From positions 1 to 64,000 of the IMG/VR virus record IMGVR_UViG_3300006737_000001: a stretch of 64,000 nt of DNA; one strand, given 5' to 3'. The position numbers were made by a program, and so were the translations under genes. The stretch comes from an uncultured virus (IMG/VR IMGVR_UViG_3300006737_000001) (lineage: Duplodnaviria > Heunggongvirae > Uroviricota > Caudoviricetes). The notes beneath the pieces are model-generated. The model saw only the letters and a program-made list of their open reading frames with translations. It was not told the origin of the DNA and searched no databases. Positions 18,790 through 27,053 of the stretch are shown here, one piece after another; position 1 is the stretch's first letter, and every line of letters begins with the position of its first letter.

Positions 18790-19010
18790 GCACCTGAGCA
18801 AGTCAGAAAACTGCTCACCTTATATTTATGGAAGTAGCTCTTCCGTAATCGGGTATGGCCGAACAAGTCCGCCACGGACTAAGGCACAGGACTGCGCAAA
18901 CCGAGAAGCGACTGCTGGAGGGATGCAAAACTGGTATGGGTTCTACTATGTAGTGGCATAAACCCATTGGAGGTATACATTAAATCCTCCTACCCATCCT
19001 TATTTTTTTT
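18790..19010 (+). ncRNA. Candidate multibranch structured RNA
   Basis: TGAGCA/TGCTCA, TTATGGAAG/CTTCCGTAA, AGTCC/GGACT, ATGGGTT/AACCCAT, GGAGG/CCTCC, GGGTA/TACCC; ends in T8. Confidence 0.5.
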
Positions 19011-20149: not shown

Positions 20150-20262
20150 TGAACTGCGTAGATTGTGGACAGTATTCAACATATGATACAGGTGGACACG
20201 AAGTGAATAAGTATTCATGCGAACACTGTTTAGTAGAAGATTACATTACAGGTGAACTATGA
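20149..20262 (+). CDS. 37-aa zinc-finger microprotein
   Basis: MNCVDCG...CEHC; overlaps both neighbours. Confidence 0.6.
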   Translation: MNCVDCGQYSTYDTGGHEVNKYSCEHCLVEDYITGEL

Positions 20263-21437
20263 GTAGAAGAGAAGGAAGACCATCACCAACTGAGTCAGCT
20301 ACTGACTTCCCTCTACACTATGAACGTGTAGGCGGAGACGGTAGATATTGGCACGTGAGTGAAGACAAGCGTGGAGTGAGAAGATGGAAGAAGGGATTAT
20401 ATCATGGTTCAGATGAGGATAAACTTCTCAGTTCAACAACCGAAACGCTTATAAAGGATGATATATCTGGAGATACAATGGAAGACAAAACCGACCACAG
20501 AGGACTCGACAGTCTATTCGACCGAGACAGTCCCACGTTAGAAGAGGAACCTACCCCCGAAGAAGTGGTAGAAGTAGAGAAAGACACAGTGATGTCTAAA
20601 CTAAGAGGGTCAGTCAATGTGCCCGAAGAGTTTAAATTCGCTGATGACATGACATTCTATACTATGTTGAGAAACATATTTAGAGGTAAAAACATTCTTA
20701 TCACAGGTCCCTCAGGATGTGGTAAGTCGAGTCTCGGTAAGATATTAGCTGATATCACTGCAAAAGACTTTTATAGTTTTAACTTCGGTGACACTATGAA
20801 TCCCTCAGCTAAGTTATTGGGTGACACTAAGTATGACAAAGAAGCCGGAACATGGTTCAAACCATCTCGGTTCGTCAATGCAATACAAAGTGATTCATTC
20901 ATTATGTTAGATGAGGTAACACGTGACCGAACAGGTGACTTAGCTAACATTCTCATGCCGGTATTAGATGGTCAAAAGTATTTAGCTCTCGATGAGAGTG
21001 AAGATAGCGATACTGTCTCAGTTAGTAAAGGTGCGTTCTTTTACGCTACTGCTAACATAGGTAGAGAGTATCTCGGTGCATCTCATGATTTAGACCGAGC
21101 ATGGAAAGATAGATTCACAGGTGGTATATATGAATTAGAATACTTACCACCACAGAAAGAGAAAGAACTGATACAGAACAGAAACCCTCAGCTTACAGAC
21201 TACGATGGTGATAAGATTGTAGACTTTGCTAAGAGAGTGCGTGACTTACATTCTTCAGACGAACTCAATACTGCTGTTTCAACACGTATGTGTTTAGCAT
21301 CGGCTGAGTTAGTTGTTGATGGGATGCCTTTAGTCGATGCACTGAAACACACCTGTTTACCGTTCTACCCTGTTCAGGGTGGTGACGATACTGAGAGAGT
21401 TCGTATTATACAAGTTATTCAATCAATGGGTGAATAG
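20259..21437 (+). CDS. MoxR/CbbQ-family AAA+ ATPase
   Basis: GPSGCGKS, IMLDE, ATAN, LDRAWKDRF, STR sensor 2; alternative start 20478. Confidence 0.88.
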   Translation: MSRREGRPSPTESATDFPLHYERVGGDGRYWHVSEDKRGVRRWKKGLYHGSDEDKLLSSTTETLIKDDISGDTMEDKTDHRGLDSLFDRDSPTLEEEPTPEEVVEVEKDTVMSKLRGSVNVPEEFKFADDMTFYTMLRNIFRGKNILITGPSGCGKSSLGKILADITAKDFYSFNFGDTMNPSAKLLGDTKYDKEAGTWFKPSRFVNAIQSDSFIMLDEVTRDRTGDLANILMPVLDGQKYLALDESEDSDTVSVSKGAFFYATANIGREYLGASHDLDRAWKDRFTGGIYELEYLPPQKEKELIQNRNPQLTDYDGDKIVDFAKRVRDLHSSDELNTAVSTRMCLASAELVVDGMPLVDALKHTCLPFYPVQGGDDTERVRIIQVIQSMGE

Positions 21438-21824
21438 ATGGTTAAGAAGAAAGTATTACGTAGAAAGCACACATATTGGCATCAGTTGGCTAAGTTCCTT
21501 ATACTGAATGGTTACAAACCAACAATGATAGGAAAGATAATCAAGGATGTATTCCCCGATACTGAGGTCAATGGTAGACACGTAGGTGCATACAAACGTA
21601 GATTGATACAAGATGAGGATATTCTCATCCCAAACAAACCAACTATGAATATCAATGAAGTAAGAGAAATAGCTGAAGGCTTAGTTAGTAACGAAGATAT
21701 GTTTATATATAAATGTGTTATCGGTTCAGCTAAGAGAAGCCTTAAGTGCTTCGAGTATAAGTTCCGTAGTGAGGATAAAGATTTAGTAAGTGAGGTAGAT
21801 AAATGGATTATGGCGATTCAATAG
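21438..21824 (+). CDS. Hypothetical (possible HTH) protein
   Basis: 128 aa between AAA+ and vWA genes. Confidence 0.55.
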   Translation: MVKKKVLRRKHTYWHQLAKFLILNGYKPTMIGKIIKDVFPDTEVNGRHVGAYKRRLIQDEDILIPNKPTMNINEVREIAEGLVSNEDMFIYKCVIGSAKRSLKCFEYKFRSEDKDLVSEVDKWIMAIQ

Positions 21825-23917
21825 ATGAATGGACTGAGGACAGTGAAGATGATTTCTGTTATGCGTGTGACGATTGGACTGATGCCGACGGTCATGGCAA
21901 CTGTAAAGATTGTGGCAACAGTTACACTACAGTAGACCCATTCGTCAGTCCGACTATAGCAAAGACATACAGTTCACCCGCACCTACTGTCTCAGCACAT
22001 GGTGACCTTTGGAATAGAGGTTCGGGTTTCACATGGGGTGGTAGTTCATATTGGTCCGGTGGTGGAACTACTTCATGGGGTAATTGGTCTCGGTCTACAA
22101 ACGACAGTGCTCGTATGCTTAAACACAAAAGACATTTAGATTCTCTTTGTAAAGTAGTAGACCCAACTGTGAAACATTCATTACACTTCGCAACTGATTC
22201 GAAGAACTATTCGAACATGGCTAATGGAACTATATATGTAGATGGGACTCTCATTGAGAATGATGATGACAAGCTCGATGTATTAGCTGGTCTCTCAATT
22301 CATGAGAAGTTACACTTAGTTCATACTAAACCATTAACTAAATGGGAACGTGAGTATAGTCACCAAAACCACCTCAGTCCGGCACAGGAAAGATTACTAC
22401 ATAACATATGTAATATTATAGAAGATGAATATATAGAATCTCAGTTAGCTAAGACTCATGCCGGATACACTATGTATATTGAGAAGGTTAAACAACACTT
22501 CTTTGGTAAGCATGGCCACAAGATAGATGAGTTCAACGGTAATCCTATCGCTGACATAATGAATACATTGTTAGCTATGGTAAGATACCCACAATCTATC
22601 TCAGCTGACCGTAGAAAGAAACACTCTAAACATATTCAGTTCTTTGCCCGTGCTCTAAAAGATGCACTAACTGATAGACATTCAACCTTTATGGCTATGG
22701 ATAGTATATATTGTTATATGAATCAACTCGCTAAAGAAGAAGCTAAGAAACACAAAGGCACCGACGAAGAAGAAATACTACGACGTGCTGATGAAAGACT
22801 CAAAGACCTTTTAGGTGAGTGGGGTGAATCTGTTGGTGAAGAGATGTCAGCTGAAGACATGGAACGTATCAAAGATAGACTTATAGAAAAAGAACGTGAC
22901 GAAGCTGAACGTGGTGATAGATATGACCGTAAAGAGAAGTTATCACGAGCTTTGGATAAGTTCGCAAAAGAACTCGCTGATTATAGTTTAGATAGGGATA
23001 CCATCTCAGACGAACTCGCTAATGAAATAGATGAGTTAGCTGACAGTGACTACTCTGAAGAGAAGTGGGATGTGTCCCGTGCTCTCGGTTTGAGACAAGG
23101 TGGTAAAGTTACATGGCGTAATCAAAGAGCCTCTTCAGACTATGATAAGAGTAAATACACTGAGGCTGAAAGAAATATGAAATCAGCAATTGGTCAACTA
23201 AAGAGAAAGATACAACTATATGGTGACACACGTATTAACACCATTCGTAACCAACGAAGAGGTAAGTTAGATAAACGTATGCTACATAAGATACCTCTCG
23301 GTCGACCCGACTTATTCAAGAATGTGATTATTGACGAAGACAAACCACTCGATGTATGTCTCTTAGTCGATGAGTCGGGTAGTATGGGTTCATGGAAGAT
23401 GGCTAAAGCACGTGAGACTGCGATTGCTTTACGTGAATCACTCAAAGACAATCAAGCTCTCAACTTATGGGTGTTTGGTCACACAGCTGACGGTTATGAA
23501 TGGGATGGTAAAGGTGACACTAATATGTCAGTGTATTGGTCACCTACATATAAATCAGATATAAAAGCTATGGGTGCTATGAGAGCACGTAGTGAAAACA
23601 GAGATGGTATGGCTATCCTCGCATCAGCCGAGAGAGTCAAAGCTGAGTCACCCTCATTAGGTGGTAACAAACTTATGATTGTTATCTCAGACGGTGAACC
23701 ATCAGCAGACAAATACAGATTCCCAATCAGTGTGCCACATACTAAGAAGTGTGTCAGACACATAGAGGGACAGGGATGGAATGTAATTCAAATAGGCATC
23801 TCAGGTGCACGTGAACATATTATGAAAGATATGTTTACTAATTACATCCTGTGTGATGATACAGGTGAGTTACCAACTAAGGTAAGTAAAGTAATTAGAA
23901 GGGTGATAAAAATATGA
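21803..23917 (+). CDS. vWA (MIDAS) domain protein, CobT-like partner of the AAA+ ATPase
   Basis: LLVDESGSM, VISDGEP; N-terminal CxxC..CxxC and HEKLH motif. Confidence 0.85.
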   Translation: MDYGDSIDEWTEDSEDDFCYACDDWTDADGHGNCKDCGNSYTTVDPFVSPTIAKTYSSPAPTVSAHGDLWNRGSGFTWGGSSYWSGGGTTSWGNWSRSTNDSARMLKHKRHLDSLCKVVDPTVKHSLHFATDSKNYSNMANGTIYVDGTLIENDDDKLDVLAGLSIHEKLHLVHTKPLTKWEREYSHQNHLSPAQERLLHNICNIIEDEYIESQLAKTHAGYTMYIEKVKQHFFGKHGHKIDEFNGNPIADIMNTLLAMVRYPQSISADRRKKHSKHIQFFARALKDALTDRHSTFMAMDSIYCYMNQLAKEEAKKHKGTDEEEILRRADERLKDLLGEWGESVGEEMSAEDMERIKDRLIEKERDEAERGDRYDRKEKLSRALDKFAKELADYSLDRDTISDELANEIDELADSDYSEEKWDVSRALGLRQGGKVTWRNQRASSDYDKSKYTEAERNMKSAIGQLKRKIQLYGDTRINTIRNQRRGKLDKRMLHKIPLGRPDLFKNVIIDEDKPLDVCLLVDESGSMGSWKMAKARETAIALRESLKDNQALNLWVFGHTADGYEWDGKGDTNMSVYWSPTYKSDIKAMGAMRARSENRDGMAILASAERVKAESPSLGGNKLMIVISDGEPSADKYRFPISVPHTKKCVRHIEGQGWNVIQIGISGAREHIMKDMFTNYILCDDTGELPTKVSKVIRRVIKI

Positions 23918-24009
23918 ATGATGATAATAATATGAAAGAAGCTCAGTGGTTTATATTAATCGCTGGGTTCATGATGTTATGGATGGTCATGATTATGATG
24001 CTGGGTTAA
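23914..24009 (+). CDS. 31-aa membrane microprotein
   Basis: ATGA overlap; WFILIAGFMMLWMVMIMMLG. Confidence 0.5.
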   Translation: MNDDNNMKEAQWFILIAGFMMLWMVMIMMLG

Positions 24010-24010
24010 G

Positions 24011-24424
24011 GGTGACAGGTAATAAGTTGAGACTTATTTTACTTAGTCGGTTTTGCTCATAGCTCAGCTTATTACCCACCAAACGCACGAAGACCTTGAA
24101 CTTTGAAGCTCAGTTTGTTTATCAGGCCACGCTGAAAGTTTTTTCAGAGACATCAGTAGTAGGACAGTATAAACAGAGAGGTAGCTATCGGTATGGTGAT
24201 AGCTGGATACAAAAGAACCAAATATATCGTTTAGCCTAATCATAATGGCGACGAGTATATGTCAAGCATACCTCAGTATACCCCTGTAAATCTATCGTGA
24301 CAGTTATGTCAGATGAGTGTGGAATGCTACATTGTAGCGTGGTATACGAAAAGAAAGAGCACGATGGTTTCAATTGCGAAGCCACACGACTCTTACTGAG
24401 AAGCCGTTCTCTCTTCGTGCACCA
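24011..24424 (+). ncRNA. Candidate structured RNA(s): 14-bp hairpin, then ~340-nt domain closed by 9-bp stem + ACCA
   Basis: GCACGAAGA(24085-93)/TCTTCGTGC(24412-20)+ACCA; at least six internal hairpins; no plausible sense ORF. Confidence 0.6.
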
Positions 24425-24481
24425 CAACCTTTATATAGGATAATCAAATATATTGAAATATAATCAAAAGGAATTGAAAAT

Positions 24482-24919
24482 ATGCAAACATTTTTACCAA
24501 CAAAAAACTTTAGAACATCAGCCAAACTATTAGACTATCGTCGTCTCGGTAAGCAAAGAGTAGAAGGACTTCAGCTCATCAACTCACTCAGTCCGGACTA
24601 CGATAAGAAAGGTTGGCTCAACCACCCCGCACGTTTAATGTGGGTTGGTTACGAAAACGCTTTGAAACATTACACTAACGTAATGATAGAAGAGTGGGTT
24701 GCACGTGGATATAACAACACGATGCAATTATATGAAATAGAAGGGCCGATAGTATACCCTCAATGGTTAGGCTATCCGGAACTGCATAAGTCACATCGAA
24801 TGAACCTACTTCGTAAGGATTACGACTTTTATAAACAGCACTTCGATGACGATGCACAAACGGACCTCACAATCATAAACGAGTATGAATACTATTGGCC
24901 ACCGGAGAAAGAAAGATGA
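24482..24919 (+). CDS. Pyrimidine-dimer DNA glycosylase (T4 endonuclease V-like)
   Basis: MQTFLP...LD.RRLGKQRVE..Q, NHPA..MW.G, SHR.NLLRKD; promoter AACCTTTATATAG 24426-38. Confidence 0.85.
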   Translation: MQTFLPTKNFRTSAKLLDYRRLGKQRVEGLQLINSLSPDYDKKGWLNHPARLMWVGYENALKHYTNVMIEEWVARGYNNTMQLYEIEGPIVYPQWLGYPELHKSHRMNLLRKDYDFYKQHFDDDAQTDLTIINEYEYYWPPEKER

Positions 24920-26447: not shown

Positions 26448-27053
26448 ATGAAAGAGATAATGGAAGAATATAGCACCACGTTCTTTGAATGTATGAGTGC
26501 GTGGCCAGATGATATCAAAGAAGATATATACAAACTATACGCATACCTCAGGGTATGTGATGAGATGGTTGAAGGTGAGAAGACTTTACATGACTTCAAA
26601 CATTGGAGGGAAGTCATAGAACAATTCTACGAAGTGAGTGATAAGTATCAGTTCGAAGGCGAGTGGCTCTCAGACTTTCACATAAGTATGTATCAAGACA
26701 TGGTGAAGAAAGAACATACTATAGTGTCTATGTTAGAATACTGTAAGGGTTCAGCTGAATCAGTTGGTATGATGATGTCAAAGATATTAGGATGTCACCC
26801 ACGCTGTGAGATACACGCCAGAGCATTAGGTAGAGCATTTCAAGTTATTAACTTCATACGAGATTATGATGAAGATGTAGATAATGGTTATCATTACATC
26901 ACAGATAACTTTAGTGCATATTTAGAAATATTTTATCAGGATTTAGATAACGGCATGGATGGAATAGATTATATACCTAAAGAGCTACAACCACCCATTC
27001 TTATGGCTGTAGAAAAATACATGGCTGTAGCTAAGAAAGTAAGTGAAGCCTAA
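26448..27053 (+). CDS. Squalene/phytoene synthase family protein
   Basis: LYAYLRVCDEMVE, YCKGSAESVG, ALGRAFQVINFIRDYDED. Confidence 0.82.
   Translation: MKEIMEEYSTTFFECMSAWPDDIKEDIYKLYAYLRVCDEMVEGEKTLHDFKHWREVIEQFYEVSDKYQFEGEWLSDFHISMYQDMVKKEHTIVSMLEYCKGSAESVGMMMSKILGCHPRCEIHARALGRAFQVINFIRDYDEDVDNGYHYITDNFSAYLEIFYQDLDNGMDGIDYIPKELQPPILMAVEKYMAVAKKVSEA

What the first reader, a model, noticed from the sequence alone, without database searches (positions are those of the whole stretch)
24011..24424. Large RNA closed by an acceptor-like stem ending in ACCA
GCACGAAGA (24085-93) pairs perfectly with TCTTCGTGC (24412-20), followed by ACCA, with a 5-bp hairpin GAGAA/TTCTC directly upstream like a T-arm. 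About 320 nt of internal hairpins are enclosed (AGCTATC/GATAGCT, TGACA/TGTCA, GCTAC/GTAGC, TGGTTTC/GAAGCCA, GTATACC/GGTATAC). The preceding 14-bp hairpin (24018-76) also ends CACCA. This topology resembles tRNA-mimic or tmRNA-like ends, but there is no TTC T-loop or G3-U70, so it is not a canonical tRNA or tmRNA.
Basis: partly seen in the sequence, partly recalled or inferred. Interest (0 to 1): 0.72.

Follow-up and report, generated by a model that had tools for sequence, protein, structure and literature searches.

The report
Modular folded RNA in sea phages
An uncultured marine phage carries a large folded RNA, built from a conserved hairpin and a long closing stem that encloses interchangeable folded modules; it is not a tRNA or tmRNA mimic and matches no described RNA family.

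Summary
The 5' hairpin and the 9-bp closing stem are real and conserved. In 37 non-redundant relatives the hairpin is 98.8% paired, with changes on both sides in 10 of 18 pairs. The closing stem is paired in 296 of 296 cells, in 15 sequence versions.

The tRNA-like reading fails:
- ACCA follows the stem in only 18 of 37 relatives.
- CACC of the first "CACCA" is base-paired.
- The "T-arm" hairpin loses to a long-range pairing: 121 of 155 cells paired against 120 of 124.
- ARAGORN and Rfam find nothing.

The element is one member of an undescribed family in uncultured marine tailed phages. It has a 5' hairpin, an interrupted closing rod (P1a/P1b/P1c) and a middle of 3 to about 650 nt. The middle is built of recurring modules in shuffled order, and one module is also circularly permuted.

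The element is single-copy, lies on the + strand, starts right after a stop codon and ends just before a promoter-like box. Its function is unknown. My best guess is a processed, stable RNA scaffold or decoy.

This scan met the same family before on other DNA.

The parts
23914..24009 (+). small hydrophobic ORF (31 aa, ..EAQWFILIAGFMMLWMVMIMMLG), overlapping the stop of the vWA gene; its stop TAA 24007-09 abuts the RNA
   Evidence: in 36 of 37 relatives an upstream reading frame stops within -6..+2 nt of the RNA start, mostly this peptide
24011..24080 (+). H1: 5' hairpin. Lower helix GGUG 24011-14 / CACC 24077-80, ACA bulge 24015-17, upper helix 24018-31 / 24063-76, apical region with conserved UUAGUCGGUUUUGCUCAU
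   Evidence: I1; 98.8% of 658 cells paired, 10 of 18 pairs changed on both sides, slid controls 34-50%; conserved U.G in 35 of 37; model R1 hits
24085..24093 (+). P1a 5' strand (GCACGAAGA) of the closing rod
   Evidence: paired in 37 of 37, 296 of 296 cells, 15 versions
24098..24101 (+). P1b 5' strand (GAAC)
   Evidence: pairs with GUUC 24406-09; 120 of 124 cells paired in 31 relatives, 3-4 pair types per position
24102..24108 (+). conserved internal-loop strand UUUGAAG (opposite AAGCC 24401-05)
   Evidence: UUUGA(A/C) conserved in the 31 relatives of this type
24109..24114 (+). P1c 5' strand (CUCAGU)
   Evidence: pairs with ACUGAG 24395-24400; variants CUUAG/CUAAG, CUCG/CGAG, CCUUA/UGAGG; mean helix 5.26 against 4.76 with shuffled partners (1 of 500 as high)
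24115..24176 (+). module B: stem 24115-22 / 24169-76, GGCCACGC 24125-32, replaceable hairpin tip 24133-57, GUAGGAC 24159-65
   Evidence: the tip differs between close relatives and is replaced in one RNA-library contig (27 nt skipped, 79 others between)
24178..24274 (+). module A: three-way junction. Outer stem GAGGU 24178-82 / ACCUC 24270-74, hairpin a1 24183-24204, junction ..AAAAGAACCAA, arm a2 carrying hairpin GCC 24234-36 / loop UAAUCAUAAU 24237-46 / GGC 24247-49, junction GUCAAGCAU
   Evidence: 10 contiguous and 6 circularly permuted instances; a1 stem in 10 sequence versions among 19
24276..24347 (+). module C: closing GUAUACC / GGUAUAC, CUGUAAAUCUAUCG, hairpin UGACA/UGUCA, GAUGAG, hairpin GCUAC/GUAGC
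   Evidence: UGACA/UGUCA has changes on both sides in L004 and L005
24355..24394 (+). module F: AAGAG / CUCUU with inner hairpin UGGUUUC 24365-71 / GAAGCCA 24378-84
   Evidence: pairs kept, two with changes on both sides
24395..24420 (+). 3' side of the rod: ACUGAG (P1c), AAGCC (loop), GUUC (P1b), UC, UCUUCGUGC (P1a)
24421..24428 (+). tail ACCACAAC, a linker to the next box, not a conserved CCA end
   Evidence: tails are ACCAYAAC/ACCAAAAG in 18 of 37; AAAC, AC, ACCC, ACUU.. in the others
24429..24481 (+). promoter-like box CTTTATATAG 24429-38, AT-rich palindrome 24440-61, TATAAT 24460-65, then the start of the Pyr_excise gene (24482-24919)
   Evidence: box 10 times exact in the window, enriched over shuffles; I2

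Best explanation
The region 24010-24428 (+) encodes one member of an undescribed family of modular structured RNAs. The family is found in a clade of uncultured marine tailed phages with genomes of about 63-70 kb.

Anatomy (shown):
- A 5' hairpin H1 with a 3-nt bulge.
- A closing rod of three long-range helices (P1a, P1b, P1c), separated by two internal loops with conserved sequence.
- A 'middle' enclosed by the rod. It is a 3-nt loop in the smallest members and about 650 nt in the largest. It is built from recurring structured modules whose number and order differ between phages.
- One module, a three-way junction, also occurs in circularly permuted form.

Inferred steps:
1. The RNA starts 0-6 nt after a stop codon, so it is transcribed as the tail of the upstream AAA / vWA / small-peptide unit.
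2. The rod brings its two ends together. It works like a processing and closure stem, as in rRNA precursors or Y RNAs.
3. The hairpin and rod are the constant, required part.
4. The enclosed modules act as RNA, as binding sites or decoys for host or phage factors, and are gained, lost and shuffled.

It is not a tRNA or tmRNA mimic.
For: Family and structure:
- H1 is 98.8% paired in 37 sequences. 10 of 18 pairs changed on both sides, and slid controls give 34-50%.
- P1a is paired in 296 of 296 cells, in 15 versions. P1b is paired in 120 of 124 cells. P1c has compensatory variants.
- RNAfold recovers H1 and P1 in 15 of 15 first members.

Strand:
- 87 of 658 H1 cells are G.U, including one U.G kept in 35 of 37 sequences. 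These would be A.C mismatches on the other strand.
- All 58 of 58 model hits lie on the gene strand.

Distribution:
- Model R1 hits 57 of 80 metagenome loci. 28 of those hits were not in its training set.
- There is one copy in each of 5 near-complete relatives' genomes and one in the window.

Modularity:
- Lengths run from 114 to 747 nt.
- Module order differs between members.
- Module A has 10 standard and 6 permuted instances, and its a1 stem has 10 versions.

Non-coding: indels of 1, 2 and 6 nt separate the closest relatives.

RNA libraries: contigs of relatives cover the element in 3 of the 4 runs laid.

Position: a stop codon abuts the start in 36 of 37, and the conserved box follows the rod.
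Against: - No transcript ends, processing sites or abundance could be measured. The runs are contigs only, and DNA carry-over in RNA libraries is possible.
- One RNA-library contig runs from the element into the downstream gene without a break (24087-24699). That fits read-through or DNA rather than a discrete RNA.
- Minimal members have no middle at all (114 nt, L011 and L047). So whatever the modules do is dispensable, and the constant part could be a purely cis-acting signal.
- The pseudoknot proposed in module A is only weakly supported: mean helix 3.79 against 3.36 in shuffles, 17 of 1000 as high.
- No partner protein or target was found.
- Relatedness of the sequences inflates shuffle-based statistics.
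Confidence: 0.6

Rival explanations
1. A purely cis-acting intercistronic element. H1 and the roughly 20-bp interrupted rod would be double-strand RNase (RNase III-type) processing sites, or 3'-end protective structures. They would separate the upstream operon from the next transcription unit, as between early genes of T7. The middle would be tolerated expansion without a function of its own.
For: The element starts right after a stop codon and ends 2-12 nt before a repeated promoter-like box. The constant part is two helical rods of about 18-20 bp with internal loops. The middle can shrink to 3 nt (L011, L047). The T7 analogy is recalled, not tested.
Against: The middle is not free-drifting filler. 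Its modules recur across distant members with conserved junction sequences, covarying stems (10 versions of a1), a permuted form, and hairpin units that cap different stems. The internal loops and the H1 apical region keep primary sequence, which is more than a nuclease needs. No cleavage data exist.
Confidence: 0.25
2. One reading: a tRNA- or tmRNA-like mimic. The closing stem would be an acceptor stem with an adjoining T-arm and a 3' ACCA, processed by RNase P/Z and possibly aminoacylated.
For: In the window the 9-bp stem is followed by ACCA, and a GAGAA/TTCTC hairpin can be drawn directly 5' of it. ACCA is present in 18 of 37 relatives.
Against: ACCA is absent in 19 of 37 relatives. The hairpin is contradicted by covariation (121 of 155 against 120 of 124 cells for the alternative). 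Its loop is 4 nt with no T-loop sequence. The stem is 8-11 bp rather than 7. ARAGORN finds 0 in the window and 0 in 12 loci. Rfam gives no tRNA or tmRNA hit in the element at E up to 10.
Confidence: 0.02
3. A single-stranded DNA structure (replication origin, packaging or recombination site) rather than an RNA.
For: An AT-rich palindrome and a repeated box lie next to it. The element is single-copy per genome. Covariation alone does not tell RNA from ssDNA.
Against: 87 G.U(T) cells in H1, with one kept in 35 of 37. All wobble pairs are on the gene strand. Three-way junction modules have conserved junctions. Relatives' copies are present in RNA-library contigs.
Confidence: 0.05
4. A Y-RNA-like partner of the upstream vWA protein, by analogy with Ro60/Rsr. 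Ro60 has a C-terminal vWA domain and sits beside the genes of its Y RNAs, which have a 5'/3' closing stem plus a variable module.
For: The gene is adjacent to a 704-aa protein with a C-terminal vWA domain. It has the closing rod with conserved internal loops plus variable modules. The Ro60/Y RNA features are recalled.
Against: No TROVE match at E up to 5. The predicted structure (pLDDT 76.7) matches NorD vWA and Rea1/MDN1 MIDAS domains, and no Ro60 is among the top 50 chains. A conserved HExxH and a CxxC..CxxC point to a metallopeptidase-like N-terminal part. In L019 and L036 the RNA lies about 1 kb from the vWA gene. There is no Rfam Y RNA hit.
Confidence: 0.03

Closest known systems
ROOL and GOLLD (large 'ornate' RNAs of phages and prophages)
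   Same: Large, elaborately folded, phage-borne RNAs of unknown function that contain a variable region. GOLLD has a conserved part and a less conserved part, and both have a variable linker (PMC12286853, passages read).
   Different: No match to either Rfam model at E up to 10 in the window, up to 5 in 8 loci, or up to 1 in 11 loci. No tRNA island nearby (0 tRNAs in the window). The architecture is different: hairpin plus closing rod around a middle of 3 to about 650 nt. Oligomer formation was not tested.
tRNA-like domain of tmRNA / tRNA acceptor-T minihelix
   Same: The 5' and 3' parts pair to close a large RNA. In the window the stem is followed by ACCA.
   Different: No conserved CCA, no T-loop, no G3:U70, a stem of 8-11 bp, and no ARAGORN or Rfam detection. 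The putative T-arm is not supported by covariation.
Y RNAs (including bacterial YrlA) with Ro60/Rsr
   Same: It works like this in outline: a closing stem with conserved irregularities plus a variable effector module, encoded beside a vWA-containing protein (features recalled).
   Different: The neighbouring protein is NorD/MIDAS-like with an HExxH motif, not a TROVE ring. No Rfam match. The adjacency is not constant.
Processing stems of rRNA precursors and RNase III sites between phage T7 early genes
   Same: Long-range or local interrupted helices of about two turns that flank a cargo RNA or sit between cistrons (recalled). The position between two transcription units is shown here.
   Different: No cleavage evidence. 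The loop sequences are conserved. The cargo is a set of shuffled modules, not one fixed RNA.
manA RNA motif (RF01745)
   Same: A structured RNA of marine bacteria and phages. One copy lies in this same window at 18826-19000.
   Different: A different sequence and structure. The element gives no manA hit.
phi29 pRNA; retron msr-msd; group I/II introns
   Same: All have ends brought together by pairing, or junction-centred folds, and occur in phages.
   Different: No Rfam hit. No reverse transcriptase in the genome. The flanking Pyr_excise gene is complete from Met1 (profile positions 1-79 of 81), so no gene is interrupted.

Membership tests
tRNA / tmRNA tRNA-like domain | detected by ARAGORN or the Rfam tRNA/tmRNA models | tested here: not met
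   0 genes in the window and 0 in 12 related loci; no Rfam hit in the element at E up to 10
tRNA / tmRNA tRNA-like domain | conserved single-stranded 3' (N)CCA after the acceptor stem | tested here: not met
   ACCA follows the stem core in 18 of 37 non-redundant relatives; the others have AAAC, AC, ACCC, ACUU..
tRNA / tmRNA tRNA-like domain | T-arm (5-bp stem, 7-nt T-loop) stacked on a 7-bp acceptor stem | tested here: not met
   candidate hairpin has a 4-nt loop and is paired in 121 of 155 cells, against 120 of 124 for the competing long-range helix; the stem is 8-11 bp
tmRNA | G3:U70 pair and a tag reading frame | tested here: not met
   third pair of the stem is A-U in the window; ARAGORN reports no tmRNA
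ROOL / GOLLD | match to the Rfam covariance models | tested here: not met
   0 matches in the element region of the window at E up to 10, in 8 relatives' loci at E up to 5 (only 2 chance hits outside the element), and in 11 further loci at E up to 1
ROOL / GOLLD | encoded in phages or prophages, often near tRNA islands (PMC12286853) | tested here: inconclusive
   phage-borne: yes; no tRNA in the 64-kb window
ROOL / GOLLD | homo-oligomeric RNA-only cage | not testable with these tools
   needs native gels or cryo-EM
Y RNA with Ro60/Rsr | neighbouring Ro60 (TROVE ring + vWA) protein | tested here: not met
   no TROVE at E up to 5; Foldseek top matches are NorD vWA and Rea1/MDN1 MIDAS, with no Ro60 in the top 50
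Y RNA with Ro60/Rsr | match to the Rfam Y RNA / YrlA models | tested here: not met
   no hit
retron msr-msd | reverse transcriptase gene in the element or genome | tested here: not met
   PF00078: 0 matches in the 67-kb genome, while controls ring in 3 of 14 genomes
group I / II intron | Rfam intron models; interrupted host gene | tested here: not met
   no hit; the downstream gene is complete from Met1, and upstream ORFs end in stop codons
the new family itself (H1 + rod + middle) | H1 hairpin with GYGAYAGG..CCCAY base and 3-nt bulge; closing rod; position after a stop codon and before the CTTTAWATA box | tested here: met
   window scores 87.1 bits with R1 (it was in the training set); 28 hits outside the training set; rod and box

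The most novel reading that the evidence does not exclude
The element is a 'frame-and-cargo' RNA. A constant hairpin and closing rod excise and present a set of exchangeable structured RNA modules. These include a three-way-junction unit that works in two circular permutations, and portable hairpin caps. The phage lineage gains, loses and shuffles the modules, in effect an RNA cassette platform. The modules would act as decoys or scaffolds for host factors such as defence or RNA-processing proteins during infection.
Probability: 0.18. Interest if true: 0.85.

Novelty: new variant of a known kind. Interest (0 to 1): 0.64.

Why it matters
Large, intricately folded non-coding RNAs are rare, and several of the known ones (ROOL, GOLLD) are phage-borne with unknown function. 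This family adds a class with an unusual design. A small constant frame (114 nt in the smallest members) encloses a middle of up to about 650 nt, made of recurring, shuffled and even permuted modules. That makes it a natural experiment in modular RNA evolution. It also offers a tractable target: minimal and maximal versions can be compared directly. The family is widespread in marine metagenomes: at least 364 relatives of the neighbouring gene exist, and 57 of the 80 loci examined carry the hairpin. Relatives of the element appear in metatranscriptome assemblies.

Tried and rejected
- **tRNA/tmRNA:** ARAGORN and Rfam were negative.
- **Cultured relatives:** blastn of the region against 50,697 phage records found no match. 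The best tblastn hit of the vWA protein is a Bacteroides phage at 26.6% identity. No host was inferred.
- **Bacterial genomes:** the closest relatives of the vWA gene are at most 29% identical over more than 150 residues, so no prophage or host was found.
- **Retron, intron or DGR:** there is no RT in the genome.
- **Antisense target of the conserved H1 apical sequence:** only the site itself was found in the window, at up to 3 mismatches.
- **Ro60/Y RNA idea:** rejected by Pfam, conserved motifs and fold search. Sequence search of PDB gave only vWA domains.
- **Module A outside this clade:** the pattern found 25 places in viral contigs, of which only 3 are this family. The other 22 lack the AGGU hairpin and look coding or chance. 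Rfam run on 15 of them gave only nearby tRNAs.
- **H1 pattern in viral contigs:** it found only 5 contigs, all already known.
- **Pseudoknot in module A** (loop UGGU with ACCA): weak. Mean helix is 3.79 against 3.36 in shuffles, with 17 of 1000 as high. UGGGUU/AACCCA in L025 and L058 is the only covarying case.
- **Self-kissing of the UAAUCAUUAU loop:** the near-palindrome is broken in the window's own variant (my reading).
- **8-nt complementarity of that loop to the small ORF** (I5/I10): not kept in L005, so taken as chance.
- **Sequencing runs:** the parts of the stretch without cover (vWA gene 23600-24083 in all four RNA runs) say nothing. Contigs give no ends, strand or level.
- **Literature:** two full-text searches found no description of this RNA. 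Only search listings were seen, except PMC12286853, where passages were read. Supplements were not opened.

Full report
**Setting.** The window is 64,000 of the 67,299 bases of a virus record with direct terminal repeats. Its genes are those of a tailed phage: terminase, portal, major head protein, tape measure, DNA polymerase and ribonucleotide reductase. Sequencing runs that hold the stretch are marine metagenomes. No cultured phage is close. blastn of the region gives nothing, and the best protein match of the neighbouring gene is 26.6% identical.

The finding lies in a gap of about 470 nt. Upstream is a 31-codon hydrophobic ORF (23914-24009). That ORF follows an AAA_5/CbbQ_C ATPase gene (20259-21437) and a 704-aa vWA protein gene (21803-23917). 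Downstream is a pyrimidine-dimer glycosylase gene (24482-24919).

**Observation.**
- A perfect 9-nt inverted repeat in 600 nt is expected about 0.7 times by chance (my arithmetic). One search lists 20 inverted pairs of 7 nt or more.
- The closing stem therefore becomes meaningful only through the fold statistics and through conservation. The + strand folds with z = -4.09, against -2.93 for the - strand.

**Relatives.**
- Searches with the flanking proteins found the same element in 14 further viral contigs. Its length there runs from 114 to 694 nt.
- A metagenome scan with an alignment of the vWA protein found 364 relatives, of which 80 loci were kept.
- A covariance model of the 5' hairpin (R1) hits the window and 57 of these 80 loci. 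There is one hit per source, and all 58 are on the gene strand. 28 hits were not in the training set.
- The 23 loci without a hit have at most about 1.5 kb after the vWA gene (my reading of the table), so absence cannot be concluded.
- R1 also finds exactly one copy in each of 5 relatives' genomes that are 90-100% complete.
- After removing near-duplicates, 37 of 44 sequences were used for the counts.

**Structure.**
- *H1 (24011-24080).* It has a 4-bp lower helix, a 3-nt AYA bulge and a 14-bp upper helix. 98.8% of 658 cells are paired, 10 of 18 pairs show changes on both sides, and slid controls give 34-50%. 87 cells are G.U, and one U.G is kept in 35 of 37 sequences. These would be A.C on the other strand, so the + strand is the folded one.
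- *Closing stem P1a (24085-93 / 24412-20).* It is present in 37 of 37 sequences. Its 8 inner pairs are paired in 296 of 296 cells, in 15 sequence versions with 3-4 pair types at every position. With shuffled partners the mean is 213.5 and the maximum 244. Loci found only by R1 add further versions, such as UGGACUGAGA, UGAACUGAGA and UGUACUGAGA with matching 3' strands.
- *Inside P1a.* The RNAalifold consensus of the five closest sequences (114 pairs, 24 with compensatory changes) pairs GAAC 24098-24101 with GUUC 24406-09 (P1b). It pairs CUCAGU 24109-14 with ACUGAG 24395-24400 (P1c). It does not form the local GAGAA/UUCUC hairpin.
- *Which model holds.* Across 31 relatives of this type, P1b is paired in 120 of 124 cells, with pair types GC/AU/UA, AU/GC, AU/GC/GU and CG/UG/UA. 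The hairpin is paired in 121 of 155 cells, with A.C and U.C exactly where sequences vary. P1c has compensatory variants: CUUAG/CUAAG, CUCG/CGAG, CCUUA/UGAGG and CUUGGA/UUCGAG. Its best helix averages 5.26 bp against 4.76 with shuffled partners (1 of 500 as high).
- *Internal loops.* The loop between P1b and P1c keeps its sequence (UUUGAAN opposite (A)AGYC).
- *A second lineage.* Six sequences (L019, L036, L101, L108, L111, L113) have a different inner rod. In five of them it is CGCCCCAAA/UUUGGGG, which covaries with CGCCCAAAA/UUUUGGG.

**The middle.** In L011 and L047 the rod is capped by 3 nt, giving 114 nt in all. In the largest members the rod encloses about 650 nt.

The window's middle holds four modules (B, A, C, F; see parts). 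Modules recur in different combinations and orders between phages.

Module A is a three-way junction:
- an outer stem xGGU/ACCx;
- hairpin a1, in 10 sequence versions among 19 instances;
- junction strands RAAGAGAACCMA and AAGCGA.

It occurs 10 times in this order and 6 times circularly permuted. In the permuted form the outer stem is capped and arm a2 is open. A loop-junction pseudoknot is possible but weakly supported.

A small hairpin with the loop UAAUCAUWAU caps arm a2 of module A in the window. In L007 it caps module B instead. The tip of module B (24133-57) is replaced between close relatives and in one RNA-library contig.

Indels of 1, 2 and 6 nt between the closest relatives exclude a conserved reading frame.

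**What it is not.**
- ARAGORN finds no tRNA or tmRNA in the window or in 12 loci.
- Rfam 15 gives no match in the element at E up to 10. It also gives none in 8 and then 11 relatives' loci, apart from two chance hits elsewhere.
- ACCA follows the stem core in 18 of 37 sequences. The others have AAAC or other letters and a spacer to the next box that is 4 nt shorter.
- The CACC of the first 'CACCA' is the 3' strand of the lower H1 helix.
- There is no reverse transcriptase in the genome.
- The neighbouring vWA protein is not Ro60-like. Pfam gives only vWA families. A CxxC..CxxC and an HExxH are conserved. The predicted structure (mean pLDDT 76.7) matches NorD vWA in NorQ-NorD complexes and Rea1/MDN1 MIDAS domains. 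Together with the CbbQ/NorQ-type ATPase upstream, this is a MoxR-type AAA/vWA pair with no known tie to RNA.

**Context and likely working.**
- In 36 of 37 sequences an upstream reading frame stops within 6 nt of the RNA start. Most often it is the small hydrophobic peptide; in four cases it is the vWA gene itself.
- The rod is followed after 2-12 nt by the box CTTTAWATA. This box occurs 10 times exactly in the window. With up to one mismatch there are 28 matches, against 10.75 expected. Five copies precede small genes at 16.3-18.2 kb and are themselves preceded by a TTTTCCAC..GTGAAAAA inverted repeat.
- I take the box as a promoter element, which is an inference. The RNA is then the tail of the upstream transcription unit, also an inference.
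- RNA-library contigs of relatives cover the element in 3 of the 4 runs laid. One contig continues into the downstream gene. They give no ends, and DNA carry-over cannot be excluded.
- The constant part, two rods of about two helical turns with conserved irregularities, looks like a recognition or processing platform. The middle, under clear structural selection yet dispensable and shuffled, looks like accessory RNA function.
- I therefore rank 'processed stable modular RNA (scaffold or decoy)' above 'purely cis-acting processing or stability signal'. Only the anatomy is shown.

**Earlier work of this scan.** A look-up by sequence returned finding e1-5359188 on another genome. It describes the same design: a hairpin, then a paired stem joining the ends of a middle of 3 to about 600 letters. 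It names ROOL, GOLLD and manA as closest known. My independent analysis agrees and adds four things: the three-part rod, the rejection of the T-arm hairpin, the module permutation, and the test of the vWA protein.

**Literature.** Two full-text searches found no description of this RNA. The statements on ROOL and GOLLD come from passages of PMC12286853. The T7 RNase III sites, rRNA processing stems, Ro60/Y RNA and pRNA comparisons are recalled knowledge.

**Verdict.** The tRNA-like interpretation is not supported. The element is a real, conserved, single-copy structured RNA of a family that is not in Rfam 15 and that I could not find in print. It belongs to the general kind of large ornate phage RNAs but has its own frame-and-cargo design.

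Noticed in passing
window 18826-19000 (+): A manA RNA motif (RF01745) at 62.8 bits, above the gathering score of 55.2. This is a second structured RNA in the same phage.
   Followed up: no
window 16325, 16485, 16848, 17425, 18150, 24429, 27473 (+); 7130, 19479, 57090 (-): The box (A)AC-CTTTATATAG is repeated 10 times exactly. Four of the + strand copies are preceded by the inverted repeat TTTTCCAC-N4-GTGAAAAA. This looks like a family of regulated phage promoters with an operator.
   Followed up: partly
window 20259-23917 (+): An AAA_5/CbbQ_C ATPase is followed by a 704-aa protein with conserved CxxC..CxxC, HExxH and a C-terminal vWA domain. The predicted fold of the vWA domain best matches NorD (NorQ-NorD complex) and Rea1/MDN1 MIDAS. 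So this is a MoxR-type remodelling pair with a metallopeptidase-like domain in a phage. 364 or more relatives occur in metagenomes.
   Followed up: partly
window 23914-24009 (+): A conserved tiny hydrophobic peptide (..EEAxWYxLLxxFxxxWMW..) is translationally coupled to the vWA gene and directly precedes the RNA in most relatives. It is absent where the RNA is smallest (L010, L011, L046, L047).
   Followed up: partly
window 24133-24157: The tip of the module B hairpin is a replacement hot spot. It has different sequence in L013, L006 and L004. In one metatranscriptome contig 27 nt are skipped, with 79 other letters in their place.
   Followed up: partly
window 24440-24465: An AT-rich palindrome (ATAATCAAATATAT/ATATATTGAAATAT) and a perfect TATAAT lie 16 nt before the start codon of the Pyr_excise gene. 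The motif AUAAUCA occurs twice here and resembles the conserved loop UAAUCAU of the RNA.
   Followed up: no
window 26448-27053 (+): A squalene/phytoene-synthase-family gene (SQS_PSY, E 2e-25) lies in the early/middle region of the phage. This is an unusual auxiliary gene.
   Followed up: no
L019 2713-3406; L036 5829-6293: In more distant relatives the RNA sits about 1 kb from the vWA gene, after other small genes. It keeps the hairpin, a closing stem of entirely different sequence and the following box.
   Followed up: yes
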